42,316 nt of DNA. It comes from Phycisphaerae bacterium (GTDB taxonomy: Bacteria; Planctomycetota; Phycisphaerae; Sedimentisphaerales; Anaerobacaceae). The stretch spans positions 1-42,316 of the forward strand of contig JBFZBL010000092.1 of assembly GCA_041308485.1 (NCBI GenBank), written 5' to 3'. Below the pieces are notes generated by a model. The model saw nothing but the letters and a program-made list of their open reading frames with translations, was not told where the DNA came from and did no database searches. The translations under genes were made by a program, and so were the position numbers. Numbering within the stretch: position 1 is the first letter of the stretch; every line of letters begins with the position of its first letter. Positions 1,848-40,017 of this stretch are shown here, piece by piece.

Positions 1848-1922
1848 AAAATCAAGCCACAGATTACACAGATTTCACTGTTTTTTTAGTTTTACCTTTT
1901 AGTGTATTCTTGGTAAAATTAT

Positions 1923-1957
1923 AAATCGAAAATAGAAAATAATAAATAGAAAATAAC
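1923..1957. repeat. heptanucleotide-periodic array, AAATNGA/AAATAAN units, intergenic
   Basis: AAATCGA AAATAGA AAATAAT AAATAGA AAATAAC, five 7-nt units directly 5' of tRNA-Gly(TCC). Confidence 0.7.
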
Positions 1958-7762: not shown

Positions 7763-9910
7763 TCACCTTCCTACGTAACCTGCTTCGGCGCAGAACAGCA
7801 GGATGTCCCTTCCCAATGGTGCGGCGTCGGATGAACCCGCCTGGCCTCCCTCGACGAGGACGGCGACCGCGATTATTCTTCCTTTACTGTCTTTGGCAAA
7901 GCCGCCAAACCAGGCGTGTTCGGGCTGTGTTGTTGAGCCGGTCTTGCCGTATAGCCGTATTCCCCGCGAAGAGAAATTTCCTAACGCCTGCGCAAATTCC
8001 CTGTTGGCGGTTCCGCCCGATTCTTCCACGACGGCGTGCATTCCCTCATAAACGGTTGCCAGTGTTACAGGGGAGATATTCAGGTTGACCGGCGCCGGTT
8101 TTGGCGCACAGGGGTCGGCTATAAGTCGGGGCGGGAGATAAATGCCGCCTCTGGCTAAGCAGGCCATCGCGTTCGCCACCTGTAAAGGTGTTGCCCTGAG
8201 GTTGCCCTGTCCAATTCCGAACCACCGTTCTTCGCCTGGCAGAAGTGCGGGCAATTGCTCAAAACTTGTAATCGTGTCTTTTGCGGGAGTGTTGGCGATT
8301 TGTCCCTGTACCTGTCTGAAATTTCTCGATGCTTGATGCTCGATACTCGATACTCGATTTTCGATGCTCGATGTGTGTTCGTCATTGTTATCGATTATCG
8401 AAGGAAGGGCGAGTCGGCCGTAGCCGAATCTAAAAAGCCAGCTTTGCAGGACGAGGGGGTCGAGACGGTCGGCCAGGTGTGAAAAATATATGTTGCAGCT
8501 TCCCTTTATGGCGTTGCGGGCGGTGTTCGACCATAAAGTATCATGTCCCACGTGGCTTCTTAAAAATATGAGGCAATTAGGCCAGCCCTGCGGCGCCCTG
8601 TGCGAAGGGCAGTTTATCACTTCGCCGGCGTTAATTTTGCCGGATTCCATTCCAGCGGTCAGTATCAGGGGTTTTATAACTGAGCCGGGCGGGTAATGCA
8701 TATTTATGGCACGATTGCGCAGCGGCTCGCAGGGGTCGCTGACGAGCGCGCCGTAGGTCTGCCTGACAAGGTTCAAATCGTAATCGGGCAGCGAGACGAG
8801 GGCGAGGATATCGCCTGAGCCGACGTCGATAACCACGGCGGCGGAAGGGGACTTGCAGATGTGATTCAGGGAGCAGTCGGTTATGCGCTGCTCAATTTTC
8901 TTTTGCAGCTCGATATCGATTGTCAGGCGGATGTCCTGGCCGAACTGCGCATCTGTTTGCCGGACGAGGTTTTTGTCTATGTCGAAGACGACCTCGCCAC
9001 GTTTACCGCGGAGAATCTGCTCGCAGACGTATTCGACGCCGTCTTCCCGTCCACAAAGCTCATCATCAAGGTAACTGACTAAACTGTCGTCGGCGAAGAG
9101 GTCTTTATCCTGCCGGCTTGGCGGGCCTACCCAGCCGATTGTCTGTGAGGCCGCAGAGCCGAAGGGATATACGCGCTGGCCCTTCGCTATGACCTCGACG
9201 CCGGTGACGTTGAGGAATTCAACTCTGGCGGCGAACACGGCGTCCTCCGATTTCAATTCTACGACGGGCTGTGTTTTTTTAAGCTCGGCGAGGTCGTCCA
9301 CTTTGTTTATCAGCAGAAGGCGGTCGCACGGGTCAGGGAATTTTTTTTCAAAATCGGCAATCGCCTCGGAGAGGGGGACGTTACTGAGATTGCGGTCATA
9401 TTTTTTCAATATATCGGCGCCGGGGGTGTTTCTGGCCCAGGCGAAAAACGTTCTGAGGTTCCAGATTTTGTCGTTTATTTTTTGAAGCCGAAGCACTACT
9501 TCCTCGCGTGACATGCCGAATTGCACGCATTTGCTGATTAGCAGGTCAAGGTCTTCCTGCCGGTCGGCGAATTCCTGCTGCAGGGGCGATATGTTGGCGT
9601 CGGGGTCTTTCGATTTGACCCGAAGAGACAGTGCCTGGAGGACGCGTTCGTCGAGAAATCGGCTTAGTTCATAGTTTATCGCCAGCCAGAACCTCGGCTC
9701 GTCGGCGGCGAGGACCTGTCCTTTTCTATCGAGAATTCTCCCCCGCATTGTTCTGACCTGCTGGAGGGAGCCCGCCTGAATGCGCAATTGCGCGACCTGT
9801 TCCCTGTAAAAGGAGGTCGAGAGCAGCTGCATATCCGCGAGTCGAAAGACGCATAGGCCGAGCAAAACGGCCCCTGCGATTACCAGAATGGTGATTCTTT
9901 TTTTATACAT
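7763..9910 (-). CDS. mrdA: penicillin-binding protein 2 (elongasome D,D-transpeptidase)
   Basis: 715 aa with an N-terminal TM and motifs S-V-I-K (PPGSVIKP), S-C-N (KGSCNIY) and K-T-G-S (YGKTGST). Directly downstream of mreB-mreC-mreD. Contains a low-complexity insert encoded by heptamer repeats. Confidence 0.85.
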   Translation of the reverse strand: MYKKRITILVIAGAVLLGLCVFRLADMQLLSTSFYREQVAQLRIQAGSLQQVRTMRGRILDRKGQVLAADEPRFWLAINYELSRFLDERVLQALSLRVKSKDPDANISPLQQEFADRQEDLDLLISKCVQFGMSREEVVLRLQKINDKIWNLRTFFAWARNTPGADILKKYDRNLSNVPLSEAIADFEKKFPDPCDRLLLINKVDDLAELKKTQPVVELKSEDAVFAARVEFLNVTGVEVIAKGQRVYPFGSAASQTIGWVGPPSRQDKDLFADDSLVSYLDDELCGREDGVEYVCEQILRGKRGEVVFDIDKNLVRQTDAQFGQDIRLTIDIELQKKIEQRITDCSLNHICKSPSAAVVIDVGSGDILALVSLPDYDLNLVRQTYGALVSDPCEPLRNRAINMHYPPGSVIKPLILTAGMESGKINAGEVINCPSHRAPQGWPNCLIFLRSHVGHDTLWSNTARNAIKGSCNIYFSHLADRLDPLVLQSWLFRFGYGRLALPSIIDNNDEHTSSIENRVSSIEHQASRNFRQVQGQIANTPAKDTITSFEQLPALLPGEERWFGIGQGNLRATPLQVANAMACLARGGIYLPPRLIADPCAPKPAPVNLNISPVTLATVYEGMHAVVEESGGTANREFAQALGNFSSRGIRLYGKTGSTTQPEHAWFGGFAKDSKGRIIAVAVLVEGGQAGSSDAAPLGRDILLFCAEAGYVGR
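8324..8401. repeat. heptanucleotide-periodic array inside mrdA: NNTCGAT x7, then TTATCGA x2
   Basis: TCTCGAT GCTTGAT GCTCGAT ACTCGAT ACTCGAT TTTCGAT GCTCGAT (8324-8372), and TTATCGA TTATCGA (8388-8401). This segment encodes IIDNNDEHTSSIENRVSSIEHQASRN. Confidence 0.85.
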
Positions 9911-9949: not shown

Positions 9950-10450
9950 TTATCTTCGTCCGCGGCGCCGAGTTTTTATACGCATCAGCCAGTCCAAAAG
10001 CAAGAACAAAACAGGGCCCAGCACCGCTGAATAAATCGATGTTCCCAATAATGCGCCAAAGCCTGCCGGCCTGGATTGGCCCGCTATTCGTGCCAGCAGC
10101 CAGGCGAGATATCCTGCGGCCAGCGCGACGACAAATATGGTAATCGCCTCGTGCGGCACTTTTTTAATACTTACAATCCGGTGCAGATACGACAGGGCGG
10201 TTCCAAACAGTCCGAAACTGATTATAAACGGCCCCATAGAGAAACCGCTGGCGGCAATATCGGCCGCGAAACCAAGGACAAACGAGGTGATAATCGCCTC
10301 GAATTCGTTGCATCGTACCGCGAAAAAAACCATGGCAATCAGGAGCAGGTCAGGCGTGACACGCAGGTTTGTTACCGCGATTGTGTCAATCCAGCGTGCC
10401 TGTAAAAAGGCGGCAATCAGAAGCAGTACCGCAAATCGCGGCCAATTCAT
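9950..10450 (-). CDS. mreD: rod shape-determining protein MreD
   Basis: 166-aa polytopic membrane protein located between mreC and mrdA. SD GGAGGAG upstream. Called mainly from position and hydrophobicity. Confidence 0.7.
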   Translation of the reverse strand: MNWPRFAVLLLIAAFLQARWIDTIAVTNLRVTPDLLLIAMVFFAVRCNEFEAIITSFVLGFAADIAASGFSMGPFIISFGLFGTALSYLHRIVSIKKVPHEAITIFVVALAAGYLAWLLARIAGQSRPAGFGALLGTSIYSAVLGPVLFLLLDWLMRIKTRRRGRR

Positions 10451-10510: not shown

Positions 10511-11362
10511 TTATTTCCCGCCGGATGTTTTGGTGTTCTCGGCCCGATTCAAATTGCCTGAGCTCTGCGGGTTCATTATTATGACCGCCACGTTGTTCAG
10601 TTTTGTAATATCACAGCTCGGCTTGACGGTGATATCCCACAGAGCCGGGTTTTTGCTGTCTCTTTTGCACTGCTGCACCTCGCCGACAATCATAGCCGAG
10701 TCCATGTATCCCGGTTTTTTGCGGAGCATGACCGGCGAGCCGATTTTTATCTGGTGTTTGGCGGGGACCATTTTTATTTTTGCCGTATTATTTCCATTGC
10801 CCTGCATCAGCATATTTATTTCAACATCGGGCATGTTTACCTGGGCCACCGACGCCGAATCAGTGAAGAGCCGGACTTTGGCCGTGCGGGGATAGAGGTC
10901 GGATATAGTCCCGATGACGCTGTTGTCGCCTATGACAAACATATCCTTGCAGACGCCGTCGTCTTTTCCACGATTTATGATAAACTCGCTTCGCTGCCCC
11001 GAAGCCGGGGAGATGATAATATCCGCGGGCACTAATTTAGCCCCCTCAAGACCGCGCAATCTTGTCCTAACGCCCGACAACTGCTGAATAGCCTGATTCT
11101 TCTGGCGGAGTTCCTCTTCGAGGTTTGCGATGTAGTTTTGATACTGCGATTCTTTTCTGCTGAAATCATCCTTGAGCGGAAGCTCGGTTTTGGCTGAAAG
11201 GGGCACGTGTCTTGCCGCACTGAGAGGCCGATGAAAAAAGCGGGCGAAGGCAAACTGGAGTCTGCTTGTAACAGCAAGAGGGGAGAAAAGCAGGATAAGT
11301 CCGGCCAGCATAAACCAGGCGAACAACATCCTACTGGTAATTCTGATTCGCTTCCGTGCCAT
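10511..11362 (-). CDS. mreC: rod shape-determining protein MreC
   Basis: N-terminal TM, a coiled-coil (YQNYIANLEEELRQKNQAIQQL), then beta-barrel segments with NRGKDDGVCKDMFVIG and GSPVML motifs. Directly downstream of mreB. Confidence 0.8.
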   Translation of the reverse strand: MARKRIRITSRMLFAWFMLAGLILLFSPLAVTSRLQFAFARFFHRPLSAARHVPLSAKTELPLKDDFSRKESQYQNYIANLEEELRQKNQAIQQLSGVRTRLRGLEGAKLVPADIIISPASGQRSEFIINRGKDDGVCKDMFVIGDNSVIGTISDLYPRTAKVRLFTDSASVAQVNMPDVEINMLMQGNGNNTAKIKMVPAKHQIKIGSPVMLRKKPGYMDSAMIVGEVQQCKRDSKNPALWDITVKPSCDITKLNNVAVIIMNPQSSGNLNRAENTKTSGGK

Positions 11363-11404: not shown

Positions 11405-12460
11405 TTACCAGCCGGAGTCGGAATGCTCCATTGTGTCCTTCCACAACTCCAGATTCTCGAGGTAAACGCTCGTGCCTCGCGCCACCGCAGTCAGCGGGTC
11501 ATCGACGCGGATAACTTTAAGGCCCGTCGCGTTTGCCAGCACCGTGTCCATTCCCCGCAAAAGCGAGCCGCCGCCGCAGATGTGAATTCCGTTATCTATA
11601 AGGTCTGCGGCCAGTTCTGGGTCTGCTTTTTCGAGGGTCCTCGTTACGGCGTCAATAATGGACGCCACCGGCTCTTTCAAGGCCTCGCGGATTTCTTCGC
11701 TTGTGATGACAATTTTCCTCGGAAGTCCTGAAATGGTGTCTCGTCCTGAAACCTCCATAGTCAGCTCTTCTTCAAGTGGGACGGCTGAGCCGATTTGTAT
11801 TTTTACTTTTTCCGCTCTGGGTTCGCCGACGAGCAGGTTGTATGTTCGTTTGAGGTGATTGATGACGGCCTCATCCATATCATCGCCGCCTACGCGAATT
11901 GATTCACAGGTGGCGATATCGGCCAGACTCATTATTGCGATTTCGGTAGTGCCGCCGCCGACATCGACAATCATCGAGGCGGTCGGGTCGGTAATCGGAA
12001 GCCCCGCGCCTATTCCAGCTGCCATTGGCTCGTCAACAAGATACACTTTTCGCGCGCCGGCGCGCTCTGCGCTGTCGATAACGGCTCTTCGCTCGACGGC
12101 AGTAATTCCGCTGGGGACGGCGATAACGACGCGAGGATTTACGAAACCTCTTCTGCCATGAACCTTGTGGATAAAGTAGCTCAGCATCGCTTCGGTGATT
12201 TCGAAGTCGCTGATTACGCCATCTTTGAGGGGACGAATTGCGCTGATTGATCCGGGGGTTTTGCCTAACATTTCGCGAGCGACAAGTCCGACAGCTTCGC
12301 CGTTGTTGAGGACCTGGTTGGTTCCTTTTCGGACCGCGACGACCGAGGGCTCATTGAGAACTATACCCTTGCCTCGGACACAAACCAGCGTATTACAGGT
12401 ACCGAGGTCGATACCCATATCCATGCTGAACCTGCCTAATATCGTGTCCAGAAGCTTCAT
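11405..12460 (-). CDS. mreB: rod shape-determining actin homologue MreB
   Basis: MGIDLGTCNTLV (phosphate-1), VIAVPSGITAVERRAV, DEPMAAGIGAG, IVDVGGGTTEIA and ICGGGSLLRGMD are canonical MreB/actin-fold blocks. Confidence 0.95.
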   Translation of the reverse strand: MKLLDTILGRFSMDMGIDLGTCNTLVCVRGKGIVLNEPSVVAVRKGTNQVLNNGEAVGLVAREMLGKTPGSISAIRPLKDGVISDFEITEAMLSYFIHKVHGRRGFVNPRVVIAVPSGITAVERRAVIDSAERAGARKVYLVDEPMAAGIGAGLPITDPTASMIVDVGGGTTEIAIMSLADIATCESIRVGGDDMDEAVINHLKRTYNLLVGEPRAEKVKIQIGSAVPLEEELTMEVSGRDTISGLPRKIVITSEEIREALKEPVASIIDAVTRTLEKADPELAADLIDNGIHICGGGSLLRGMDTVLANATGLKVIRVDDPLTAVARGTSVYLENLELWKDTMEHSDSGW

Positions 12461-13772: not shown

Positions 13773-14801
13773 TCACCGTCCTATATTATTGGCAGAAGTA
13801 TATTGTAAGGTCGCCTTAGCTGCGGCAAGCCTGGTAAACTGAAACTCGCTTTTTAGTAATTCCGGGAGGAAGTTTTTAAGGGTTGGCGTCCTGATTTGGC
13901 CTATTGCAAGGGCCGCCAGCGTCTGTATGCGTGCCCTTGTTTCATTGTCCTGTGCGCTGGCTATATCTTTTGTAAGGGCATTGATGATGACTTTTTCGCC
14001 CGCGGTATCGCCCAGGTTGCCAAGCTGTTCTGCCGCCACGAGACGTACCTCCGTCAGGTCGTCTTTGAGCATTGTTGCAATAGAGTCTTTTGCCTGGGGT
14101 GTTCCCAGCGCCCCCATTGCCCGGATGCCGCAAACCCGGTCATCGGCGTATGCGCTTATCAGCATTGCCCAGAGTTTTTGATAGATTTTGTTGTCGCCAA
14201 GCCGGGCAATGGCCTCAATCGAGCTTAATATGACTTTTTCATCGGAGGTGTTATCTCTCATGGTCTCGTAGAGTATGGGCAAAGCCCGCCTGGGCGATTC
14301 GCCTGATTTACCTAACAGGAAGGCGGCGTTTGCTCTGACACTTTGGTCGTTACTTTTTATGGATGTGTAGATAGTCGCAAGCCCGCTTTTGTAACCAAGT
14401 TTATAAGCAGCATAGGCGGCGGCGATTTTGACGTTTTCGTTATCGTCTTTGAGCAATCGGGTGATGTCGCCGCGTGCCTTAGAGTATCCGGTGTCACCTG
14501 TCGCGACTGCGGCTGCAAACTTAACCGGCACAGACTCGTCTTTGAGCAGCTGCTGTACTGCCGGCATAAACTTGTCTGCCTGGCTTGTCGGAACGGCGGC
14601 AGCCATTTCGATGGCATTGGTTCTGACCTGCGGGCTGCTATTAGCAAGGGCCTGCTGGATTATCTGTGTCGCCTGAGCTTCAAGTTCGCTGCTTACGGGG
14701 CCGCCGGCTGCGTTCTGCTTTACGGGACCGGTTTGGCAGCCGCAAAGAGCAATCAGCGAGAATATGAAACAGGTGAAAACGATTCTATTTTTTATCATCA
14801 T
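13773..14801 (-). CDS. HEAT/PBS-lyase-type repeat protein, probable lipoprotein
   Basis: Signal peptide ending SLIALCGC. Repeated helical units of about 31 aa follow (VRTNAIEMAA, VPVKFAAAVATG, VKIAAAYAAYKLG, VRANAAFLLGK, VRLVAAEQLGNLG, TRLAAAKA). Confidence 0.7.
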   Translation of the reverse strand: MMIKNRIVFTCFIFSLIALCGCQTGPVKQNAAGGPVSSELEAQATQIIQQALANSSPQVRTNAIEMAAAVPTSQADKFMPAVQQLLKDESVPVKFAAAVATGDTGYSKARGDITRLLKDDNENVKIAAAYAAYKLGYKSGLATIYTSIKSNDQSVRANAAFLLGKSGESPRRALPILYETMRDNTSDEKVILSSIEAIARLGDNKIYQKLWAMLISAYADDRVCGIRAMGALGTPQAKDSIATMLKDDLTEVRLVAAEQLGNLGDTAGEKVIINALTKDIASAQDNETRARIQTLAALAIGQIRTPTLKNFLPELLKSEFQFTRLAAAKATLQYTSANNIGR

Positions 14802-16575
14802 TTATTTTACTCCCTTTTTCGCCTTGGGTTCGTCGTTTAAGGAAGAATCGCTCAGCAATTTGCGCTATTATGATTACAACTACACTCAACTGACAAGCGA
14901 AATCCAGCAACTGGCCGTGTTTGCTGAAAAAAGTAGTCCTCGTGTCGATGGGTACGGTGTCCGCAAACCAGCCCTCAACGCCCTTGCGGTCGAATGCCTT
15001 TCGCGGCAGGTTTCCCGCGGCGTAGCCGTCCTTAATCTGGCCAAGCGTGTCAATCATACAACTGATTCCCGTGTTGACGCTTCGCAGCACGGCTAATCTG
15101 TTCTCTACCGCCCGAAATGCGCAAATCGCCGCGTGCTGTGAAAGCTCGGTTGCGGGCAGGACTTTGCCGTCTTCGAATCGCACAAACCACCCGTCATTGC
15201 TTATATTCACGAGCCAGTCGATTCGCCTGCTGCCTTTTTCATCCAGCGCAAATTTTCTCGCCATAAAAGGCACCGCATCCTCGTAGCAAATCATCACGCT
15301 GAATTTGTATGTGCGGTTGGCATCCTGCGGCTGCATTTCAAAGGCCGTATATTCCGTGCCCGGGTCAATCGTATAATCGAAATCGTAAGGCGACATTTTC
15401 AGGAACAGCTTGTGAATCAGCGGGATATTGGAGAAGGGCAGCATTTCGCCGAAGGGCACGAGATATATTTTGGAGTATTTTTGAGGCGACTGATTGCCGT
15501 CGGGCTTATACAAAAAAGCGGAGTTGAATTTTTGCGCCATGCGAATGTTGCCTGCGTCGTATCGAGGCGTGCCATCGTATGCCCCGACAAGAACATGCGC
15601 ACCTTTTTTGGCGTGCCCGCGGATGGTTTCATCGAAGGTTTTATAATAATGGTCATCAACCAGGAGGCGCAAGACCTGCCGGTTCAGTATTGCCTGCACC
15701 ATCGTTTCGGGCCAGACGACAAGTTTGGCCCCCGCAGTGATACACTGGTCGCTTTGCACCAGCAGCTCATCGAAAATTTGTTTTTCCGCGGCAAAGGATT
15801 TTTTGACGGATATGGGTATGTTCGTCTGAACCGCTGCAATCATAGGCCCGGGCGTGACTGTCGTATCGGACTGATTTATTCGCCAGTGTCCATACACGAG
15901 TGTGCCAACAACTACTGCGACTGTTACGATAATTGAGAATTTAGAATTAAGAATTAAGAAAGGCAGCCGAAGGCTCATTTGTTTCTTTTCTGAATTCTCA
16001 GTTTTCAATTCTAAATTTTTGGCACAAATTATTAATTGTGCAATTAACCCATTTACCATTCCCACCACAAACGAGACGCCCGCCGCGCCGAATATGTCGG
16101 CTATCTGGATTAAGGTGGTGTTGGTGAATTGGCTGTGAGCGAGATAGTTCCAGTAAAAGCCGCCCAGGAAAAGCCCCTGCATCTGCTCGATGCCTACGAC
16201 TGAGATGGGGACGGCGATAAAAAGCGGTATCTTTTTGTTTTTGCACCACCGCAAAGATAACACCAGTATAGGCCAGAGGAGGGCGGTATAAAGGCAAAAT
16301 GCGAGCCAGCCAATAACCGTTACGAAGCTCATCCAGTATATATTGCCGAGCCAGTAGCAGGTCGAGACGGCAAATGCGGTAAGATATAATCTCGATACTC
16401 GATGCTTGATACTCGATTCTCGTGATTCGGATAAGCAGACAAGAATAAAAGGCACATACGCCACCCACGCCAGCGGCCACCATCCAATCGGCTGCTGCGC
16501 CAGTGTCAGCATAACCGCCGTCGCGGCAAAAGCAGCTAAAAGACGCAAAATCCCTTTCGTGTTTTGAATACTCAA
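14785..16575 (-). CDS. lnt: apolipoprotein N-acyltransferase
   Basis: Polytopic N-terminal half and a C-terminal CN-hydrolase domain with LVVWPE (Glu), KIYLVPFGE (Lys) and VMICYE (Cys). TTG start at 16575 overlaps the methyltransferase stop by 4 nt; a later start cannot be excluded. Two repeat-encoded inserts lie in the membrane half. Confidence 0.85.
   Translation of the reverse strand: MSIQNTKGILRLLAAFAATAVMLTLAQQPIGWWPLAWVAYVPFILVCLSESRESSIKHRVSRLYLTAFAVSTCYWLGNIYWMSFVTVIGWLAFCLYTALLWPILVLSLRWCKNKKIPLFIAVPISVVGIEQMQGLFLGGFYWNYLAHSQFTNTTLIQIADIFGAAGVSFVVGMVNGLIAQLIICAKNLELKTENSEKKQMSLRLPFLILNSKFSIIVTVAVVVGTLVYGHWRINQSDTTVTPGPMIAAVQTNIPISVKKSFAAEKQIFDELLVQSDQCITAGAKLVVWPETMVQAILNRQVLRLLVDDHYYKTFDETIRGHAKKGAHVLVGAYDGTPRYDAGNIRMAQKFNSAFLYKPDGNQSPQKYSKIYLVPFGEMLPFSNIPLIHKLFLKMSPYDFDYTIDPGTEYTAFEMQPQDANRTYKFSVMICYEDAVPFMARKFALDEKGSRRIDWLVNISNDGWFVRFEDGKVLPATELSQHAAICAFRAVENRLAVLRSVNTGISCMIDTLGQIKDGYAAGNLPRKAFDRKGVEGWFADTVPIDTRTTFFSKHGQLLDFACQLSVVVIIIAQIAERFFLKRRTQGEKGSKINDDKK
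15930..16016. repeat. 87-nt inverted pair of heptamer arrays inside lnt (AATTNAG x4, 31-nt spacer, CTNAATT x4)
   Basis: AATTGAG AATTTAG AATTAAG AATTAAG (15930-15957) and CTGAATT CTCAGTT TTCAATT CTAAATT (15989-16016). The arms are 21/28 complementary. The spacer holds a small GCC-GAA-GGC hairpin. 87 nt equals 29 codons, encoding KNLELKTENSEKKQMSLRLPFLILNSKFS. Confidence 0.8.
16390..16431. repeat. heptanucleotide-periodic array inside lnt, NNTCGAT family
   Basis: TCTCGAT ACTCGAT GCTTGAT ACTCGAT TCTCGTG ATTCGGA. Same unit family and same strand orientation as the mrdA array. Encodes SESRESSIKHRVS. Confidence 0.8.
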
Positions 16576-17522
16576 TCCGTTATGCCCTTCAAAGCGGTCG
16601 CTATCTCCGCGGAGATATACTGTTTTTGATTGTTCATTCGGATGGCAAACTGGCCCGTGAACAGTTCCAGAAGGTCTTTGTTCGACAGGAGCTGTTTGGG
16701 TGAATATCCGATGTCCGGTATGAGCCGTTTTAATTCACGTATTTCGACGATATTCAGTTTGTGTTCTTTTTCCATTCTCGCTTGAGTATCGAGCTGAGCG
16801 AGACGCTGATTTGCTTTTTTAACATAATCCGCGGAGATTTCTATACCGACGTAGTTTCTGTGCAGTTTTTTTGCCGCTGCTGCCGTTGTACCTGAGCCGA
16901 CGAATGGGTCAAGAACACAGTCTCCCGCATTTGAGCTTGCCGCGATGATTCTCATAAGCAATTGTTCAGGCATCTGGCAGGGGTGCCAGCCGGTGCGTTC
17001 TTTGAATGTTCCGCACACCCGCGGGTCCTCCCATACGTCGTCGGGAATCTTGCCCGCGGGGTTGGCGCGTTTATCCGCATAAATCAACTGCCGGTCCGAT
17101 GGAACTCGCACTGCGAAATCGTTGAAAGCGAAATTTTTACTGTCATTGACAAAGTAAAATATATGCGTGTGTGAACGGGCGAACTTGTCTTTTGTCTGCT
17201 GGCCAAAGGTATAGTGCCATATTATCCAGTTGCGCATCACCAAACCCAGTTCATCTGCGATAACCTTTACATTCGCGGCGTAATCATCTCCTATGGCGAT
17301 GTAAAACGAACCGGCGGGCTTGAGCACTTTTTTGCAGGCGGCAATCCAGTCTTTTGTCCACGCGATGTAGTTATTTCGTTCGACTTTATCGTGGTATTTA
17401 TCGTATTTGTACCCGATATTGAAGGGGGGGTCTGCGAATATCAAGTCCACGAAGGGCTGGGCGATTTTGCCCAGTGTTTCGATACAGTCGCCGCAAATTA
17501 TCTTATTCAATAATTCCTGCAT
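16572..17522 (-). CDS. beta-class N6-adenine/N4-cytosine DNA methyltransferase, no cognate nuclease in the window
   Basis: Motif IV IFADPPFNIGY comes N-terminal to motif I VLDPFVGSGTTAAAA, the beta-class permutation of the N6_N4_Mtase family. A tail of about 80 aa follows the catalytic core. Confidence 0.85.
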   Translation of the reverse strand: MQELLNKIICGDCIETLGKIAQPFVDLIFADPPFNIGYKYDKYHDKVERNNYIAWTKDWIAACKKVLKPAGSFYIAIGDDYAANVKVIADELGLVMRNWIIWHYTFGQQTKDKFARSHTHIFYFVNDSKNFAFNDFAVRVPSDRQLIYADKRANPAGKIPDDVWEDPRVCGTFKERTGWHPCQMPEQLLMRIIAASSNAGDCVLDPFVGSGTTAAAAKKLHRNYVGIEISADYVKKANQRLAQLDTQARMEKEHKLNIVEIRELKRLIPDIGYSPKQLLSNKDLLELFTGQFAIRMNNQKQYISAEIATALKGITD

Positions 17523-17532
17523 ACCGGCATAT

Positions 17533-17574
17533 TTTAAGCTTAAAACTTAAAACTAAAAGCTAAAAACTTATGAC
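17533..17574. repeat. heptanucleotide-periodic array, TTAAAAC/TAAAAGC units, intergenic
   Basis: TTTAAGC TTAAAAC TTAAAAC TAAAAGC TAAAAAC TTATGAC, directly upstream of the methyltransferase start codon. Confidence 0.75.
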
Positions 17575-25680: not shown

Positions 25681-25771
25681 TTGGAAATTTGCGGTTTGGT
25701 AATTTGAATTTGTTTAGGATTTAGGGTTTAGTGCTTAGGATTTTGAACTACACGCTGCACGCTGTCCGCTG
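25681..25771. repeat. 91-nt phase-locked heptamer array made of three unit families
   Basis: Thirteen consecutive 7-nt units in one register. They read TTGGAAA TTTGCGG TTTGGTA ATTTGAA TTTGTTT, then AGGATTT AGGGTTT AGTGCTT AGGATTT, then TGAACTA, then CACGCTG CACGCTG TCCGCTG. A 14-nt duplication TGAGTTTATCGAAG / TGAGTACAATCGAG lies just upstream at 25603-25630. Confidence 0.8.
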
Positions 25772-25919
25772 CTTTATGTCAATTTGGGTAACTTGCCCTC
25801 CATTCGACACACACAAAAACGAGGGGCAAGTAGGGTCAAGTAGGGGCAACTAAAAACTTCCTTATAATAGCATTAGTATTTCTTGTTGAAAAATAGGCAA
25901 TTGTGATTTTTTTGGGGGC

Positions 25920-26816: not shown

Positions 26817-27323
26817 ATGACCGAGGACGTTGTCAATGCCAGGCAGTTCAATCTTTTGGACGAAAATGGCAAGGTCCGCGCCCGTCTGGGGATGCAGAAC
26901 GGGCCGAAGTTAGTTTTTTTCGACGAGGATGGAAAGAATCGTGCCGAATTGACCGTGTCAAAGGATGGGCCGAGGTTGGACTTTAGCGACGAGAATGGCA
27001 AACTCCGCGCCTATCTGCGTGTGTCAAATGACGGGCCGGTGTTGCTATTTGGCGACGAGAACAGCAAGCCCTGCGCCTATCTGCGCGTGCCAAAGGACGG
27101 GCCGAGGTTGGCCCTGTTCGACGCGAGTGGAAAGCCCCGCGCCTATCTGCGCGTGTCAAAGGAGGGGCCTGTGTTGGAACTGGGCGACGAGAAAGGACTA
27201 CGCGCCGGTCTTGGGGCCGCCCAAGTTACTTCAAAGGATGGAGTTGTTGTTACATATCCCGAATCTTCCCTGGTTCTGCTTGATCCAGACGGCAAGGTGC
27301 AATGGCAGGCCTTTGTCCGGTAG
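26817..27323 (+). CDS. hypothetical protein built from tandem 22-residue repeats (D-E-x-G-K-x-R-A-x-L-x-V-x-x-D-G-P-x-L-x-L-x)
   Basis: Repeat-initial Asp residues fall at positions 15, 36, 58, 80, 102 and 124, a period of 21-22 aa. SD GGAAAGGAG lies upstream. No signal peptide. Confidence 0.75.
   Translation: MTEDVVNARQFNLLDENGKVRARLGMQNGPKLVFFDEDGKNRAELTVSKDGPRLDFSDENGKLRAYLRVSNDGPVLLFGDENSKPCAYLRVPKDGPRLALFDASGKPRAYLRVSKEGPVLELGDEKGLRAGLGAAQVTSKDGVVVTYPESSLVLLDPDGKVQWQAFVR
26853..27221 (+). repeat. 66-nt tandem coding repeat, 5-6 copies
   Basis: The DNA motif GCGCCTATCTGCG(T/C)GTG(T/C)CAAA recurs with a 66-nt period (near 27005, 27071 and 27137). The protein-level repeat is listed above. 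Confidence 0.8.
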
Positions 27324-35234: not shown

Positions 35235-35933
35235 ATGCTCAGATTTTTGAGGAAATTTCGCAAAAGTTTCAAAACAGCATGCCTGACCGCGGCTCTGGCA
35301 ACATGCTGGCAGGTAGGGCAGCCGGCAAAAGCTGACTGGGGTGACTGGAATGAGGTTACTTTTAGGCTAACCGGAACGGTCACACCAACTCAACACAATG
35401 TCTCAAATTTGTATCTTCTCTATGGTTTGAATAATTCGTACGTACGAGAATTTTCTTATATAAGTCTCGGAAATTTCCCAGCCGGGGTCATTAGTAACTT
35501 ATCCATAGATATGACAGTGCCATATGATGAAAGCATCTTTGATAGTGATGACAAAAATGTGTATTGGGAAGCTGTAGGCCTTTATGGAGATATCAGCGGC
35601 GGGTACGACGACAAAAAAAATGGTGTGACATTAGGGATAAATGCCGCTGTAGGTGACCCATGGAGTTCACATACTTGGCGTGATGAAGGAGAGGTATTCA
35701 GCCGGCTTATAGATAACCAGGATTCTCATCAATGGGATAGTGGTTTTCATCCCTGGTATCCCATTGATTTCCAATATCATTCTTTCAATCTTACAATTAA
35801 CTTATTTGATTTTTCAAATGCCAGCTACAACGGGCAGGTTCAGTTAAATTTAGAGGTTGTACCTGAGCCGGTAACAATTATTCTGTTCGGGACAGGCGGA
35901 TTGATAGTTGCTGCCTTCCGCCGGCGGAGGTAG
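35235..35933 (+). CDS. PEP-CTERM sorting-domain protein, paralog 1
   Basis: Signal peptide MLRFLRKFRKSFKTACLTAALATCWQVGQPAKA. Conserved core AVGLYGDISGG...NGVTLG. C-terminal VPEPVTIILFGTGGLIVAAFRRRR (PEP motif, TM, Arg cluster). SD GGAG upstream. Confidence 0.85.
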   Translation: MLRFLRKFRKSFKTACLTAALATCWQVGQPAKADWGDWNEVTFRLTGTVTPTQHNVSNLYLLYGLNNSYVREFSYISLGNFPAGVISNLSIDMTVPYDESIFDSDDKNVYWEAVGLYGDISGGYDDKKNGVTLGINAAVGDPWSSHTWRDEGEVFSRLIDNQDSHQWDSGFHPWYPIDFQYHSFNLTINLFDFSNASYNGQVQLNLEVVPEPVTIILFGTGGLIVAAFRRRR

Positions 35934-35968
35934 CAATTATTGCTTTTTTTTGACAGAGGAGAAAAAAG

Positions 35969-36643
35969 GTGCTCAAGTTTCTGAGAAAGTTTCGAAAGAA
36001 GTTCAGGACGGCTTGCCTTACAGCAACGCTGGCAACCTGCTGGCAGGTGGGCGAGGCGGCAAAGGCAGATACGCCAAACTGGGGGGATGATATTACTATT
36101 AAATTTTCAGGAACTGTATCCCCGACGGTTAAAGACATATCCCATTTATTTCTTGTTTACGGAACAGGATATTCCTTCATTAATTTTGGTCCATGGAATA
36201 TAAAGCTCGGTGATTTCCCCGCAGGGCAGAGCATTTCTTTCTCAGTACAGGGGCCGGCAAGTTACGATTCTGATTTGTTTTGGATCGTTGCGGGTCTTTA
36301 TGGTGATATAAGCAGCGGCAGGTACATCGAAGGAGTTAATGGTGTTACTTTGGGGTTGGAGCCTGGTTCCACCATCGATGGCTGGATCTGGGACTGGAAA
36401 CTGACAGAGCAGGATGCATTTGATTACCTTTTAAATGATTCGCCGGGAAACGCTTTTTTGATATCGGCAATGCGGGAAGAGGTAGGCCTGGAGCTTACCA
36501 ACACAAGTAATTTGTTTAATTTCTCTGGTCTGACTTATAACGGACAAATCCAAATTCAAACTGAAATTGTTCCTGAGCCGGTAAGCATAATCTTGTTCGG
36601 GACAGGCGGATTGATAGTTACTCGCTTGCGCCGGCGGACATAG
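35969..36643 (+). CDS. PEP-CTERM sorting-domain protein, paralog 2
   Basis: GTG start after GAGGAGAAAAAAG. Same signal peptide family. C-terminal VPEPVSIILFGTGGLIVTRLRRRT. Confidence 0.85.
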   Translation: MLKFLRKFRKKFRTACLTATLATCWQVGEAAKADTPNWGDDITIKFSGTVSPTVKDISHLFLVYGTGYSFINFGPWNIKLGDFPAGQSISFSVQGPASYDSDLFWIVAGLYGDISSGRYIEGVNGVTLGLEPGSTIDGWIWDWKLTEQDAFDYLLNDSPGNAFLISAMREEVGLELTNTSNLFNFSGLTYNGQIQIQTEIVPEPVSIILFGTGGLIVTRLRRRT

Positions 36644-36676
36644 TGATTTTGCTGTTTTTGAGAGCGGAGAAAAAAG

Positions 36677-37369
36677 ATGCTCAAGTTTCTGAGAAAGTTT
36701 CGAAAGAAATTCAGGACGGCCTGTCTTACGGCAGCATTAGCAACCTGCTGGCAGGTAGGTCAGGCAGCAAAGGCGGATACGCCCAACTGGGGAGATGAGG
36801 TTACTCTTAAATTTACCGGGACAGTTTCACCTTCGACAAATGACTTGTCGCACCTGTTTCTTATCTATGGAACGGGTTACTCCGGTTTGACTTGGGGACC
36901 TTGGGTCGTAAAACTCGGCGACATTCCGGCCGGACAAGATGGCTCTTTTTCAGTGCAGGGGCCTGCGCTTTATCATGAAAGCTTATTTTGGGCTGTCGCA
37001 GGTCTTTATGGTGATGTCAGCGGCGGTCAATATATAGCTGGCACCAATGGTGTTACATTAGGCGTCGTTGGCGCAGTGGGTGACACATGGGCTTATCACT
37101 CTTATTGGGTCAGTGAAGAAGAAATGTTTGGCCATCTTCTAAATGACAACACAGCGGCATTGGCGAACGATGGCAACCTTCTTAGCTGGCCGCATATCGA
37201 GTGGTATTGCGGCCTTGAAACCAGCACATCGAGCGACTTGTTTGATTTTTCGCAGGCCAGTAATAACGGGCAGATGGAGATGACATCCCGGATTGTCCCT
37301 GAGCCGGTAAGCATTATCTTGTTCGGGACAGGCGGATTGATAGTTGCTGCCTTGCGCCGGCGGAGGTAG
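36677..37369 (+). CDS. PEP-CTERM sorting-domain protein, paralog 3
   Basis: ATG start after GGAGAAAAAAG. Same signal peptide family. C-terminal VPEPVSIILFGTGGLIVAALRRRR. Confidence 0.85.
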   Translation: MLKFLRKFRKKFRTACLTAALATCWQVGQAAKADTPNWGDEVTLKFTGTVSPSTNDLSHLFLIYGTGYSGLTWGPWVVKLGDIPAGQDGSFSVQGPALYHESLFWAVAGLYGDVSGGQYIAGTNGVTLGVVGAVGDTWAYHSYWVSEEEMFGHLLNDNTAALANDGNLLSWPHIEWYCGLETSTSSDLFDFSQASNNGQMEMTSRIVPEPVSIILFGTGGLIVAALRRRR

Positions 37370-37403
37370 CAATTATTGCTTTTTTTGGCAGAGGAGAAAA
37401 AAG

Positions 37404-38111
37404 GTGCTCAAGTTTCTGAGAAAGTTTCGAAAGAAGTTCAGGACGGCCTGTCTTACGGCGGCATTGGCAACCTGCTGGCAGGTAGGTCAGGCGGCAAATG
37501 CGGAGATTTCTTATCCCAGTTGGGGGGACGAGGTTGCTTTTAAGTTTACCGGAACGGTTTCACCTTCAACGAATAGCTTGTCTCATATGTTTCTTATTTA
37601 TGGGACAGGATCATCCGGCACAATAGATTTCCCTTTAGGTTTCATAGATCTCGGGAGTTTCGAAAAAGAACAGGTGACTTCATTTTCTGCCCTTGGAGAT
37701 GCTCATTACGCTGAATTTGTGTGGTGGTTCACAGCAGGACTATATGGTGACACAAGCAGCGGTCAATATATCCCAGGCACAAATGGTGTTACGCTTGGTA
37801 TATTGGCTTCGGTGGGGGATTCGTGGGATTTTCGAACACCGATTGTCGACGCTGAAACAACTGCCTTTGCATGCCTTTTGAATAATACGCCCGAAAACCT
37901 GACTATTTCGGATTACTGGGAACAAGGCTGGCACATAGATGAACCAGCTTATATGGTTCTAAATGCTTCGAGTGATTTATATGATTTTTCCACGGCTGTG
38001 AAAAATGGTCAAATGGAGTTTACCCTTGAGATTATCCCTGAGCCGGTAAGCATCGTCTTGTTCGGGACAGGCGGGATGATAGTAGTTGCTTTGCGACGCC
38101 GGAATCAGTAA
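37404..38111 (+). CDS. PEP-CTERM sorting-domain protein, paralog 4
   Basis: The GTG at 37404 after GAGGAGAAAAAAG aligns with the starts of paralogs 2 and 3. The listed ORF start at 37344 overlaps paralog 3. C-terminal IPEPVSIVLFGTGGMIVVALRRRNQ. Confidence 0.8.
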   Translation: MLKFLRKFRKKFRTACLTAALATCWQVGQAANAEISYPSWGDEVAFKFTGTVSPSTNSLSHMFLIYGTGSSGTIDFPLGFIDLGSFEKEQVTSFSALGDAHYAEFVWWFTAGLYGDTSSGQYIPGTNGVTLGILASVGDSWDFRTPIVDAETTAFACLLNNTPENLTISDYWEQGWHIDEPAYMVLNASSDLYDFSTAVKNGQMEFTLEIIPEPVSIVLFGTGGMIVVALRRRNQ

Positions 38112-38122
38112 AGTTTCCGTCG

Positions 38123-39289: not shown

Positions 39290-39333
39290 TAAAAATGTGA
39301 AGCTGACACATTTTTGATTTGAGGAGAAAGCAG

Positions 39334-40017
39334 ATGGAATGGACGTGCAGGGACATAGCGAAAATGATAGACCACTCACTTTTGAAGCCGGAGATGACGG
39401 CTGATGACATCAGGAAGGGCTGCGATGTGGCGAAAAAATACGACGTGGCGACCGTTTGCTGCTCGCCCTGGGCGCTGCCTTTGGTGGCTATGCTGCTCAA
39501 AGGAACTGATATAAAGCCGACGACGGTGATTGGTTTTCCGCACGGGTACAACAAGACCGAAACAAAGGTCTTCGAGGCGGAACAGGCGATTAAAGACGGC
39601 GCACTTGAGCTTGATATGGTGCTCAATATCGGCAAACTCAAAAGCGGCGACTTCGATTATGTAAAAAATGATATTAAAGCCGTTGTCGATACCGCACACA
39701 AGAATAAGGTACTTGTGAAGGTCATACTTGAAAATTTCTACCTTACCGATGAGCAGAAGAAAACCGCGTGTCGGCTTTGCGAGGAAGCTGGCGCTGACTG
39801 GGTGAAGACATCGACGGGCTTTGCCGGCGGCGGGGCGACGATAGAGGATTTGAAACTAATGAGAAAGGCCGTATCGAAAAAGGTGCAGGTCAAGGCGGCA
39901 GGGGGCGTGCGAGACCTTGATATGGCTTTAAAAGTCCGCGAGGTCGGCTGCACTCGCTTCGGCGCAACCGCGACAGCAGCCATTATGGATGAATGCTTTA
40001 AAAAAAGGCAAAAGTAA
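39334..40017 (+). CDS. deoC: deoxyribose-phosphate aldolase
   Basis: The ATG at 39334 is preceded by [41 protein letters not shown] and DWVKTSTGF (Schiff-base Lys) are DeoC blocks. Confidence 0.85.

What the first reader, a model, noticed from the sequence alone, without database searches (positions are those of the whole stretch)
8324..8401. Degenerate heptanucleotide array (NNTCGAT x7) inside the intact ORF of PBP2
Seven consecutive 7-nt units (TCTCGAT GCTTGAT GCTCGAT ACTCGAT ACTCGAT TTTCGAT GCTCGAT), then TTATCGA x2, lie inside an intact 715-aa mrdA ORF. They encode a low-complexity segment (IIDNNDEHTSSIENRVSSIEHQASRN). As far as I recall, this has no counterpart in class B PBPs. A 7-nt period cannot arise from codon structure, so the segment looks like DNA-level repeat growth or insertion that was later tolerated in an essential elongasome enzyme. 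Heptanucleotide tandem repeats are known from cyanobacteria (STRR elements), but there they are mainly intergenic. I am not aware of a described equivalent in PVC bacteria or in core coding regions.
Basis: partly seen in the sequence, partly recalled or inferred. Interest (0 to 1): 0.7.

Follow-up and report, generated by a model that had tools for sequence, protein, structure and literature searches.

The report
Seven-base microsatellite inside PBP2 loop
A short run of seven-base DNA repeats sits in frame inside a floppy surface loop of an essential cell-wall enzyme of a Sedimentisphaerales (Planctomycetota) bacterium. It is one local case of a lineage-wide excess of seven-base repeats, a curiosity of genome mutation rather than a new biological system.

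Summary
TRF finds 7.0 copies of a 7-nt unit at window 8325-8373 (83% matches, score 63). On the coding (minus) strand the unit is ATCGAGN. Two TCGATAA units lie at 8388-8401. All sit inside an intact 715-aa PBP2/MrdA gene of a Sedimentisphaerales genome.

The array encodes T513-R529. These residues fall in a loop between the FGYG motif and a conserved R-D/N-F-R-Q motif of the transpeptidase domain. Across about 90 orthologues this loop varies in length and sequence. In the AlphaFold model it has pLDDT below 50.

It is not a one-off insert. Twenty-two of 89 distinct orthologous loops carry 7-nt arrays, mostly CGAGNNN-type units, in register with the conserved Arg codon. Loop lengths peak at 16, 23 and 30 aa, a step of three units. 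In 1.36 Mb of related DNA, period 7 dominates all tandem repeats (142 arrays against at most 35 for any other period). A second PBP2 loop and the lnt gene are also hot spots.

Best explanation: a slippage-driven heptanucleotide microsatellite, tolerated as a passenger peptide in a disordered loop. Heptanucleotide repeats, including coding ones, are already known in other bacteria. This is therefore a new member of a known kind, of moderate interest.

The parts
7763..9910 (-). Host gene: PBP2/MrdA, a class B penicillin-binding protein of 715 aa, intact ORF
   Evidence: ORF. (PBP_dimer 55-313, Transpeptidase 357-704). (best NCBIfam hit TIGR03423 pbp2_mrdA, 298 bits, below the 455-bit equivalog cut-off). 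(S410/K413, S471-C472-N473 and K656-T657-G658 invariant in 35 orthologues). (best structural matches are E. coli and Y. pestis PBP2). mreD (9950-10450), mreC (10511-11362) and mreB (11405-12460) lie directly upstream on the same strand.
8327..8416 (-). Hypervariable loop segment (residues R499-S528) between the FGYG motif and the conserved R-N-F-R-Q motif
   Evidence: Alignment of 120 homologues. The segment is 10-45 aa long in 89 distinct orthologues. It cannot be aligned at the DNA level with the closest relatives, although both flanks align well. Model pLDDT is below 50 for residues 502-533.
8324..8372 (-). Main heptanucleotide array, 7 units. Coding strand: ATCGAGC ATCGAAA ATCGAGT ATCGAGT ATCGAGC ATCAAGC ATCGAGA. 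Encodes T513-R529 (TSSIENRVSSIEHQASR).
8373..8387 (-). Non-repetitive 15-nt spacer (coding strand CAATGACGAACACAC) between the two unit blocks
8388..8401 (-). Two TCGATAA units (coding strand). Because the TCGA core is palindromic, they are at once a 5/7 direct match and a 12-13/14 inverted match to the main array.
   Evidence: (inverted repeat 8340-8352 / 8389-8401, 13 nt, 92% complementary). (RNA fold no more stable than shuffles, z = -0.52).
8312..8326 (-). Conserved anchor codons AGA AAT TTC AGA CAG (R529 N530 F531 R532 Q533), which abut the array. In the other array-bearing orthologues examined the array runs in phase into CGA-GAY-TTY here. In the window the junction reads CATCGAGAAATTTC instead of the typical CATCGAGATTTC, so the register is displaced by 2 nt.
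   Evidence: R529, R532 and Q533 are invariant or nearly invariant.
16391..16424 (-). Second array of the same unit family (CACGAGA ATCGAGT ATCAAGC ATCGAGT ATCGAGA), inside lnt (apolipoprotein N-acyltransferase). Encodes SRESSIKHRVSR.
   Evidence: Orthologous lnt genes of L001, L006, L017 and L021 carry period-7 arrays at the same site.
15931..16019 (-). Pair of period-7 arrays inside lnt that are inverted complements of each other (plus strand AATTAAG x4.3 and TTCTCAA x4.3)

Best explanation
The segment is a heptanucleotide microsatellite of the CGAGNNN / ATCGAGN unit family. It occupies a permissive, disordered surface loop of the PBP2 transpeptidase domain.

Inferred mechanism. Sedimentisphaerales genomes generate 7-nt tandem arrays at a high rate, most simply by replication slippage. 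A preference of slippage for 7-nt units has been proposed for bacteria in general. Inside a gene such arrays survive only in three circumstances: the unit has no stop codon in any phase; the protein tolerates extra residues; and the net length change keeps the frame, either by three units (21 nt, 7 aa) or by another number of units plus a small compensating indel.

Seven and three share no common factor, so a 7-nt array encodes the same 7-aa peptide in all three frames (IEHRASS for ATCGAGC). The peptide is therefore a passenger of the DNA repeat and not a selected motif.

Shown. At this site the arrays of most orthologues run in phase into the conserved Arg-Asp codons (CGA GAY T). These codons themselves read as a near-perfect unit.

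Inferred. The array was therefore seeded from, or is anchored on, those codons and grew upstream into the loop. It has since expanded, decayed and re-expanded in different lineages.

The window's copy is a moderately degenerate array (83% matches). Its register is displaced by 2 nt relative to the other lineages. This is consistent with a past change of unit number that was not a multiple of three and was repaired by a 2-nt indel at the junction (inference).
For: Shown by tools:
- The array is real and far above chance.
- Period 7 dominates tandem repeats in 1.36 Mb of related genomes: 142 arrays against 10-35 each for periods 8-16 and 5 or fewer for longer periods, and none shorter than 7. 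Fifty kb of E. coli around mrdA has none at the same threshold, while the window has 5.
- Twenty-two of 89 distinct orthologous loop segments carry a period-7 array. Some are perfect: L027 CATCGAG x4, L060 x2.9, L079 ACGCAAT x4.4.
- Pooled lag-7/14/21 identity in the loop DNA is 0.35 against about 0.25 at other lags. Neither the conserved part of the loop nor the upstream coding DNA shows this.
- Loop lengths peak at 16, 23 and 30 aa.
- In array-bearing loops 112 of 200 CG dinucleotides lie in the phase of the conserved Arg codon. The last 'unit' is CGAGAYT, which is Arg-Asp plus one base.
- The window's sister clade keeps a relic of that phase (70 of 146 CG), although TRF no longer detects an array there.
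- Site-2 arrays likewise end in phase with the conserved Ile-Asp codons ATCGAC.
- Array-coded residues lie in the model's low-confidence segment 502-533. Catalytic motifs are intact.
- All five unit variants of the main array are stop-free in every phase of the coding strand.

From the literature:
- Heptameric repeats are over-represented in many bacteria, and a polymerase-footprint slippage explanation has been proposed (PMC4692102).
Against: - No strain-level or read-level data were available. The closest relative in any collection is 89% identical, so ongoing copy-number change at this locus is inferred and not observed.
- The same unit also forms long perfect intergenic arrays in unrelated genomes: L119 x14.9 and L118 x9.4. 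It also occurs in lnt and at PBP2 site 2. Local seeding from the Arg-Asp codons therefore cannot be the whole story.
- Thirty-seven per cent of arrays have an inverted-complement partner within 100 nt. Simple slippage does not predict this.
- Fifty of the array-less loops show no relic 7-nt phase. An ancient array can therefore not be told apart from repeated new origins.
- That the peptide is functionally neutral is inferred only from its variability and low pLDDT.
Confidence: 0.72

Rival explanations
1. Insertion or over-writing by a very small mobile or templated repeat element (like MITEs or cyanobacterial small dispersed repeats). On this reading the arrays are copied between loci rather than grown in place.
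For: - The same unit family occurs at PBP2 site 1, PBP2 site 2 and lnt.
- Within one genome (L079) the same perfect ACGCAAT unit sits at both PBP2 sites.
- Pairs of units match within one mismatch 8-12% of the time, against 1.6% for random heptamers.
- Fifty-three of 142 arrays have an inverted-complement partner.
- The window segment replaces, rather than adds to, the relatives' segment of similar length.
Against: - No defined termini, target-site duplication or associated transposase gene was seen.
- Copy number is continuously variable.
- Arrays merge in phase with conserved host codons, which points to growth in place.
- Unit sharing within a locus (12%) is barely higher than between genomes (8%).
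- Unit composition bias was not controlled.
Confidence: 0.12
2. Phase-variable contingency locus. Slippage by one unit switches PBP2 off or on, as in neuO of E. coli K1.
For: A repeat whose unit length is not a multiple of three lies inside an ORF. The documented precedent is neuO, with AAGACTC repeats that are ON only when the repeat number is divisible by three (PMC13001214). Some orthologues carry long arrays, for example L065 site 2 at x13.4 and 90% matches.
Against: - The array is degenerate: 83% matches and a longest perfect run of 20 nt.
- The gene is the only mrdA-type PBP next to mreBCD and is presumably essential.
- All 80 orthologues recovered with the loop have an ORF of at least 600 aa through it.
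- The position is mid-domain, not at the 5' end.
Confidence: 0.05
3. A peptide repeat selected at the protein level (a heptad motif such as SSIExRx with a structural or binding role). On this reading the DNA periodicity is a by-product.
For: Similar peptides (SSIENRxSxIExR) recur in orthologues only 51-57% identical. A low-confidence helix is predicted at residues 516-526.
Against: - A 7-aa repeat needs only a 21-nt period. Here lag-7 and lag-14 identity are as high as lag-21 (0.54, 0.49, 0.44).
- Other lineages have unrelated peptides at the same place from other units (NTQYAIR, ATSNEQR, SSLVPRP) or nothing at all.
- pLDDT is below 50.
- The closest relatives lack the motif.
Confidence: 0.05
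4. A functional nucleic-acid element inside the coding region. Examples would be an mRNA hairpin formed by the TCGATAA units and the array, or a binding site for a regulator, as proposed for TAACTGA repeats.
For: An inverted repeat of 13 nt at 92% complementarity links the two blocks. Many arrays in the lineage come as inverted pairs. A post-transcriptional regulatory role has been proposed for other heptamer repeats (PMC4679880).
Against: The predicted fold of window 8310-8410 (minus strand) is no more stable than shuffles: -17.9 against a mean of -16.4 kcal/mol, z = -0.52. The complementarity follows from the palindromic TCGA core. Array presence, unit and length are not conserved among orthologues.
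Confidence: 0.05
5. Assembly or sequencing artefact.
For: The source is a metagenome-assembled contig (one search lists a single NCBI contig of 42,316 bases).
Against: The array is 49 nt, shorter than a sequencing read. The ORF is intact. Equivalent arrays occur at the same site in more than 20 independent assemblies.
Confidence: 0.01

Closest known systems
Heptanucleotide simple-sequence repeats over-represented in bacterial genomes, including cyanobacterial STRR repeats (Calothrix/Nostoc) and GGGAATC / GGGGAYT repeats of Xanthomonas and Nostoc (PMC4692102)
   Same: Tandem 7-nt units. Several unit families per lineage. A strong excess of period 7 over other periods. Length and sequence vary between related species at the same locus. 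Occasional inverted pairs. Polymerase slippage has been proposed as the cause.
   Different: Those repeats are mainly intergenic and G-rich or lineage-specific in sequence. Here the host is Planctomycetota (Sedimentisphaerales), the unit is ATCGAGN, and the array lies in frame inside the catalytic domain of an essential enzyme, at a site that is a hot spot across the order.
neuO 5'-AAGACTC-3' heptanucleotide repeat of E. coli K1 (PMC13001214)
   Same: A 7-nt tandem repeat inside a coding sequence. It is translated into a 7-aa repeat. The frame is kept only when the repeat number changes by multiples of three.
   Different: In neuO the repeats are perfect, number 3-53, lie at the 5' end, and act as an ON/OFF switch in an accessory phage gene. 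Most sequenced alleles are out of frame. Here the repeat is short, degenerate and mid-gene in a housekeeping enzyme, and no out-of-frame orthologue was seen.
TAACTGA direct repeats of Beggiatoaceae, cyanobacteria and Bacteroidetes (PMC4679880)
   Same: Heptamer direct repeats of 2-6 copies scattered through a genome. A minority lie inside ORFs, where they encode a heptad peptide (LSVISYQ), mostly in peripheral, non-conserved parts of proteins.
   Different: That system has a single unit, mostly lies just upstream of start codons, and has stops in all frames in one orientation. A translational regulatory role was proposed for it. Here there are many unit types and no fixed position relative to start codons.
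Geobacter metallireducens GGGACCG x4 elements (PMC2700814)
   Same: [quoted passage not shown]
   Different: Those have a fixed copy number and a conserved 49-member family that can be aligned by BLAST, and are annotated as putative regulatory RNA elements. Here copy number and unit vary.
Microsatellite-derived low-complexity inserts in protein loops (general phenomenon; my own knowledge)
   Same: A DNA repeat expands in a region where the protein tolerates extra residues, giving lineage-specific disordered segments.
   Different: The usual cases have 3- or 6-nt units. A 7-nt unit forces 7-aa length steps and gives the same peptide in all three frames.

Membership tests
Bacterial heptanucleotide tandem repeat (SSR of unit 7) | Head-to-tail copies with a 7-nt period, at least 3 copies, above chance | tested here: met
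   TRF gives 7.0 copies, 83% matches, score 63. The best period-7 score in 100 shuffles was 36.
Bacterial heptanucleotide tandem repeat (SSR of unit 7) | Period 7 over-represented relative to other periods in the genome or lineage | tested here: met
   Window: 14 period-7 rows against a shuffle mean of 0.62. In 1.36 Mb of related loci: 142 arrays against at most 35 for any other period. The E. coli control has 0 at score >= 40. Only mrdA neighbourhoods were sampled, not whole genomes.
Bacterial heptanucleotide tandem repeat (SSR of unit 7) | Copy number differs between related genomes at the same locus | tested here: met
   Between species, copy number ranges from x2.9 to x7 at PBP2 site 1, with loop-length modes of 16, 23 and 30 aa. 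Variation between strains could not be tested.
Cyanobacterial STRR families, strictly defined | Unit sequence belongs to the described STRR units (recalled from memory: CCCCAGT, TTGGTCA, CAACAGT) and the host is a cyanobacterium | tested here: not met
   The unit is ATCGAGN. Names attached to homologues place the host in Sedimentisphaerales / Planctomycetota.
Phase-variable contingency locus (neuO type) | A long perfect repeat tract prone to slippage | tested here: not met
   Matches are 83% and the longest perfect run is 20 nt.
Phase-variable contingency locus (neuO type) | Out-of-frame alleles present among isolates or within populations | tested here: inconclusive
   All 80 orthologues recovered with the loop keep an ORF of at least 600 aa. 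These are consensus assemblies of different species, and no reads or near-identical strains were available.
PBP2 / MrdA (class B PBP of the elongasome) | Pedestal (PBP_dimer) plus transpeptidase domains with SxxK, SxN and KTG motifs | tested here: met
   Pfam domains. S410/K413, S471-C472-N473 and K656-T657-G658 are invariant. Foldseek top hits are E. coli and Y. pestis PBP2.
PBP2 / MrdA (class B PBP of the elongasome) | Score above the NCBIfam equivalog cut-off for pbp2_mrdA | tested here: not met
   TIGR03423 scores 298 bits against a cut-off of 455. It is still the best-scoring family. The mreB-mreC-mreD-mrdA gene order supports the assignment.
Miniature mobile element (MITE or small dispersed repeat) | Defined termini or inverted terminal repeats, target-site duplication, and near-identical copies dispersed in the genome | tested here: inconclusive
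   No boundaries other than the units themselves were found. The inverted match is explained by the palindromic TCGA core. Only two loci in 42 kb share the unit, and their sequences differ. The whole genome was not available.

The most novel reading that the evidence does not exclude
Sedimentisphaerales (and perhaps Phycisphaerae more widely) may have a lineage-specific process that makes 7-nt tandem arrays, often as adjacent inverted-complement pairs. On this reading the process repeatedly writes them into the same permissive loops of core envelope enzymes (two loops of PBP2, three sites of Lnt). The arrays would act as built-in length-variation modules that change proteins in 7-aa steps. The process would be something other than ordinary slippage, for example a templated or hairpin-mediated copying mechanism.
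Probability: 0.2. Interest if true: 0.65.

Novelty: new member of a known kind. Interest (0 to 1): 0.4.

Why it matters
- It gives a clean natural example of how a non-triplet microsatellite can live inside an essential gene. A 7-nt unit yields the same peptide in every frame, so only the junction has to be kept in frame, and protein length then moves in 7-aa steps.
- It extends the little-studied excess of heptanucleotide repeats in bacteria to Planctomycetota. It also shows that such repeats can persist, or recur, at the same loop across an entire order.
- For annotation, it explains odd low-complexity peptides (SSIEHRA, NTQYAIR, SSLVARD and the like) in proteins of this lineage. It also marks two PBP2 loops and several Lnt loops as tolerant of insertion.
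- It does not reveal a new biological system.

Tried and rejected
- Window-wide lag-7 autocorrelation shows no signal (0.2499). The excess is local, so this whole-window statistic is the wrong test.
- RNA hairpin between the TCGATAA units and the array: the fold is no better than shuffles (z = -0.52), so it was rejected as evidence of structure.
- Strain-level polymorphism: the window's own protein is not on record elsewhere. DNA for P0009, the 84%-identical relative with an intermediate loop (...ASRIEHRASRR), could not be retrieved.
- Relic periodicity in array-less loops: there is none by lag-7 identity (0.27). There is none by CG phase either, except in the window's sister clade.
- A perfect (SSIEHRA)x7 protein query against 5.8 billion proteins returned only about 30 short hypothetical ORFs. 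These are probably intergenic arrays called as genes, so the search did not reveal other host protein families.
- Single-linkage clustering of units at one mismatch or less joined 136 of 142 units into one cluster. This was uninformative.
- The distant loci L108-L116 were intended as a negative control. They turned out to hold their own heptamer pair, the same locus sampled three times. E. coli was used as the control instead.
Full report
**1. The observation**

The plus strand at 8324-8372 reads TCTCGAT GCTTGAT GCTCGAT ACTCGAT ACTCGAT TTTCGAT GCTCGAT. Positions 8388-8401 read TTATCGA TTATCGA, exactly as reported.

- Tandem Repeats Finder calls 8325-8373 as period 7, 7.0 copies, 83% matches, no indels, score 63.
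- In 100 dinucleotide-preserving shuffles of the window the best period-7 score was 36.
- A three-unit pattern (ATCGAGNATCGAGNATCGAG, up to 3 mismatches) matches 8 times in the window and never in 100 shuffles.
- The gene is on the minus strand. There the units read ATCGAGC ATCGAAA ATCGAGT ATCGAGT ATCGAGC ATCAAGC ATCGAGA.

**2. The host gene**

ORF 7763-9910 (minus strand, 715 aa) has Pfam PBP_dimer (55-313) and Transpeptidase (357-704) domains.

- Its best NCBIfam match is pbp2_mrdA, although below the equivalog cut-off (298 against 455 bits).
- mreD, mreC and mreB lie immediately upstream on the same strand. The same gene order is seen on a relative's contig.
- In an alignment of 35 orthologues the catalytic motifs S410-x-x-K413, S471-C-N473 and K656-T-G658 are invariant.
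- Foldseek places an AlphaFold model closest to E. coli and Yersinia PBP2.
- Source names on homologues, and the titles of the genome contigs, identify the lineage as Sedimentisphaerales (Phycisphaerae, Planctomycetota).

**3. Where the array sits in the protein**

The array encodes T513-R529. These residues lie within a segment (R499-S528) between the conserved FGYG motif and a conserved R-(D/N)-F-R-Q motif.

- In 120 homologues this segment cannot be aligned and varies in length. Across 89 distinct orthologous DNA segments it is 10-45 aa long.
- HMMER alignments to solved P. aeruginosa and E. coli PBP2 break exactly here, at query residues 501-557.
- In the model, residues 502-533 have pLDDT below 50, while the neighbouring catalytic core is mostly above 80.
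- So the array lies in a loop predicted with low confidence, between the SxN and KTG motifs. I could not compute its distance from the active site with the tools at hand.

**4. It is not a private insert**

I fetched 80 genome loci (51-87% aa identity) and 36 metagenome loci.

- Twenty-two of 89 distinct loop segments carry a TRF-detectable period-7 array in the same loop.
- The units are mostly one mutational family, CGAG[C/A/T]A[T/A/C]:
  - CATCGAG x4 at 100% in L027;
  - ATCGAGA x5.7 in L035 and L043;
  - ATCGAGT x5.7 in L041;
  - GCAACGA x6.1 in L029 and L042;
  - CGAGCCA x5.6 in L072.
- There are a few others, such as ACGCAAT x4.4 at 100% in L079.
- Lag-7, lag-14 and lag-21 identity in array-bearing segments is 0.54, 0.49 and 0.44, against about 0.2-0.28 at other lags. 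The conserved part of the same loop and the 300 nt of upstream coding DNA show nothing.
- Segment lengths peak at 16 (19 cases), 23 (10) and 30 aa (3). A further peak at 25 aa (17 cases) largely reflects the closely related sister clade. The 7-aa step equals three units, the smallest change in unit number that preserves the frame.

**5. Relation to the closest relatives**

On a neighbour-joining tree the window is sister to a clade (L001-L010, L021; 81-87% identity) that has no detectable array. ATCGAGN arrays occur in several distant clades.

- At the DNA level both flanks of the window align well with that sister clade.
- About 75 nt in between cannot be aligned: the window has 78 nt and the relatives 66 nt. 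The array is therefore a replacement and not a simple addition.
- When the loop DNA is cut into 7-mers counted back from the conserved Arg codon, the sister clade still has CG at the first position of many blocks (70 of 146 CG dinucleotides). This is a relic of a decayed array.
- These sister-clade sequences are closely related to one another, so that count is inflated by shared ancestry.
- The other 50 array-less loops show no such phase (p = 0.09).

**6. Register with conserved codons**

- In the array-bearing loops, 112 of 200 CG dinucleotides fall in the phase of the conserved Arg codon.
- In the array-bearing loci displayed, other than the window, each unit starts with CG in that phase. 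The conserved codons themselves (CGA GAY T, Arg-Asp plus one base) read as the last unit, for example ...CGAGCAT CGAGCAT CGAGATT TTAGGCA.
- The second hot spot behaves the same way. There the arrays end in phase with the conserved Ile-Asp codons ATCGAC of IDLNIS.
- I infer that the arrays were seeded from, or are anchored on, these codons and extended upstream into the permissive loop.
- The window is the exception. Its junction is CATCGAGAAATTTC where the typical form is CATCGAGATTTC, so its array is displaced by 2 nt.
- Because a 7-nt array gives the same heptad in every frame, such a shift changes nothing within the array. It only needs a compensating length change elsewhere.
- This fits a past change of unit number that was not a multiple of three, repaired by a 2-nt indel. 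That is an inference and was not shown.

**7. A lineage-wide property**

- The window has 14 period-7 TRF rows at score >= 30, against a mean of 0.62 (maximum 4) in shuffles.
- In 1.36 Mb (81 sources) there are 142 period-7 arrays at score >= 40. Periods 8-16 each have 10-35, and there are none below 7.
- Fifty-two of the 81 sources carry at least one, at about one per 10 kb in every identity band.
- Fifty kb of E. coli around mrdA has none at that threshold.
- With a crude longest-ORF gene map (coding fraction 87%), 80 arrays fall in ORFs, 52 are intergenic and 10 lie on a boundary. This is roughly a four- to five-fold higher density in intergenic DNA. Some of the 'coding' arrays at ORF starts are probably upstream of the true start codon.
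- Coding hot spots recur:
  - a second PBP2 loop, for example L065 CGAGAAT x13.4 encoding RIENRESSIENRASSIENRESSIENRESSID;
  - three sites in lnt, including the window's own 16391-16424 array of the same unit family, and the pair at 15931-16019.
- Only the neighbourhood of mrdA was sampled. No preference for envelope genes can be claimed.

**8. Inverted pairs**

Fifty-three of 142 arrays have, within 100 nt, an inverted-complement 14-mer matching at 12 of 14 or better. With shuffled flanks there were none (the flanks were shuffled by single nucleotides, a lenient control).

- Examples at the PBP2 loop are TCGTCCC x4.4 followed by CACGAGG (L065) and TCGTCCC followed by CGAGCCA (L072). Examples elsewhere are L047, L062, L063 and L072.
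- In the window the two TCGATAA units and the main array form a 13-nt, 92% inverted match. The TCGA core is itself a palindrome, and the RNA fold is no better than shuffles (z = -0.52).
- I therefore do not claim a structure here.
- Pairing is the feature that simple slippage explains least well. It is the main reason for keeping a templated or mobile-element rival alive.

**9. Comparison with what is known**

[quoted passage not shown] It mentions inverted pairs, variation between species at the same locus, and a polymerase-footprint slippage hypothesis (PMC4692102).
- Beggiatoaceae TAACTGA repeats include a minority inside ORFs, at the periphery of proteins (PMC4679880).
- Geobacter metallireducens has 49 four-unit GGGACCG elements within and between genes (PMC2700814).
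- neuO carries a translated AAGACTC repeat that is in frame only at multiples of three (PMC13001214).
- No paper in the library mentions Planctomycetes together with 'heptanucleotide'.
- The same ATCGAGC unit forms long perfect intergenic arrays in unrelated contigs: x14.9 upstream of mraZ in a 64% GC contig and x9.4 in a 40% GC contig.

**10. Verdict**

Its origin at the DNA level is supported.
- The idea of a unique lineage-specific insert is corrected. This is an old, or repeatedly re-seeded, microsatellite hot spot in a disordered loop, within a lineage rich in 7-nt repeats.
- Rivals, in decreasing order of likelihood:
  - a mobile or templated element, about 0.12;
  - phase variation, a selected peptide, or a nucleic-acid element, about 0.05 each;
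  - an artefact, about 0.01.
- It is a new member of a known kind.
- Interest is moderate. The frame logic, the phase-locking to conserved codons and the order-wide recurrence are neat, but no new type of system is implied.

Noticed in passing
window 16391-16424 (minus strand), inside lnt (14785-16575): A second ATCGAGN-type heptamer array (about 4.6 units) encodes SRESSIKHRVSR in a loop of apolipoprotein N-acyltransferase. Orthologous lnt genes in L001, L006, L017 and L021 carry period-7 arrays at the same site.
   Followed up: partly
window 15931-15960 and 15988-16019 (inside lnt): Two period-7 arrays 28 nt apart are inverted complements of each other (AATTAAG and TTCTCAA). They encode ...LILNSKFSI... 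and ...NLELKTENSEKK.... The same pair occurs in lnt of L002-L010, L017 and L020.
   Followed up: partly
L065 11796-11889; also L031, L037, L042, L056, L060, L075, L079, L080 (PBP2 residues about 590-640): Orthologues have a second heptamer-array hot spot in PBP2, just before the conserved IDLNIS motif. Arrays reach 13.4 units and end in phase with the Ile-Asp codons ATCGAC. The window has no array there (DPCAPKPAPVNLNIS).
   Followed up: partly
window 1915-1955, 2037-2065, 17539-17570, 25713-25772: Intergenic period-7 arrays with other, AT-richer units (AAATAGA, CAGATGA, CTTAAAA, TTTAGGA, CACGCTG). The first two lie upstream of the ORF 2362-2841, which I take to be mraZ from the syntenic contig. 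An unrelated contig (L119) has a perfect (ATCGAGC)x14.9 array upstream of its mraZ.
   Followed up: partly
L047 289-387, L062 594-679, L072 135-247, L063 2361-2430, L047 4777-4869: Adjacent array and inverted-array pairs lie at the 5' ends of ORFs. One arm would encode charged heptads (QKSEVRS) and the other hydrophobic heptads (LLSSVFC), which resembles a signal or anchor segment. It was not checked whether these are translated or lie upstream of the true start.
   Followed up: no
window 26954-27193 (inside ORF 26817-27323, plus strand): A 66-nt tandem repeat of 3.6 copies at 75% matches (also scored as 132 nt x1.8), that is about 22-aa repeats in a 168-aa ORF with no confident Pfam match.
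   Followed up: no
window 35235-40017: A row of similar-sized ORFs (about 224-255 aa). One has a weak PEP-CTERM match. The same 12-nt repeat AAGTTTCTGAAA (2.4 copies) occurs at 35975-36003 and 37410-37438, near the starts of two of them, which suggests a tandem paralogue family.
   Followed up: no
window 7763-9910, residues about 80-205 of PBP2: The Pfam PBP_dimer match spans 259 residues for 167 profile positions. The model shows a confident (pLDDT 85-92) helical insertion in the pedestal domain. This may be an order-specific elaboration of the region that in other bacteria contacts MreC and RodA.
   Followed up: no
window 16572-17522 (minus strand): An N6/N4 DNA methyltransferase gene (PF01555) lies directly upstream of lnt, with no restriction enzyme noticed nearby. 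The same neighbour is present on the contig of relative P0009. Any link to the TCGA / ATCGAT cores of the repeat units is pure speculation.
   Followed up: no
L109-L111 about 2884-2963 (34% GC, distant PBP at 28% identity): An unrelated AT-rich lineage has a TAATTTT x3.4 / TGAAAAT x3.4 inverted heptamer pair just downstream of its PBP gene. Paired heptamer arrays are therefore not confined to Sedimentisphaerales.
   Followed up: no
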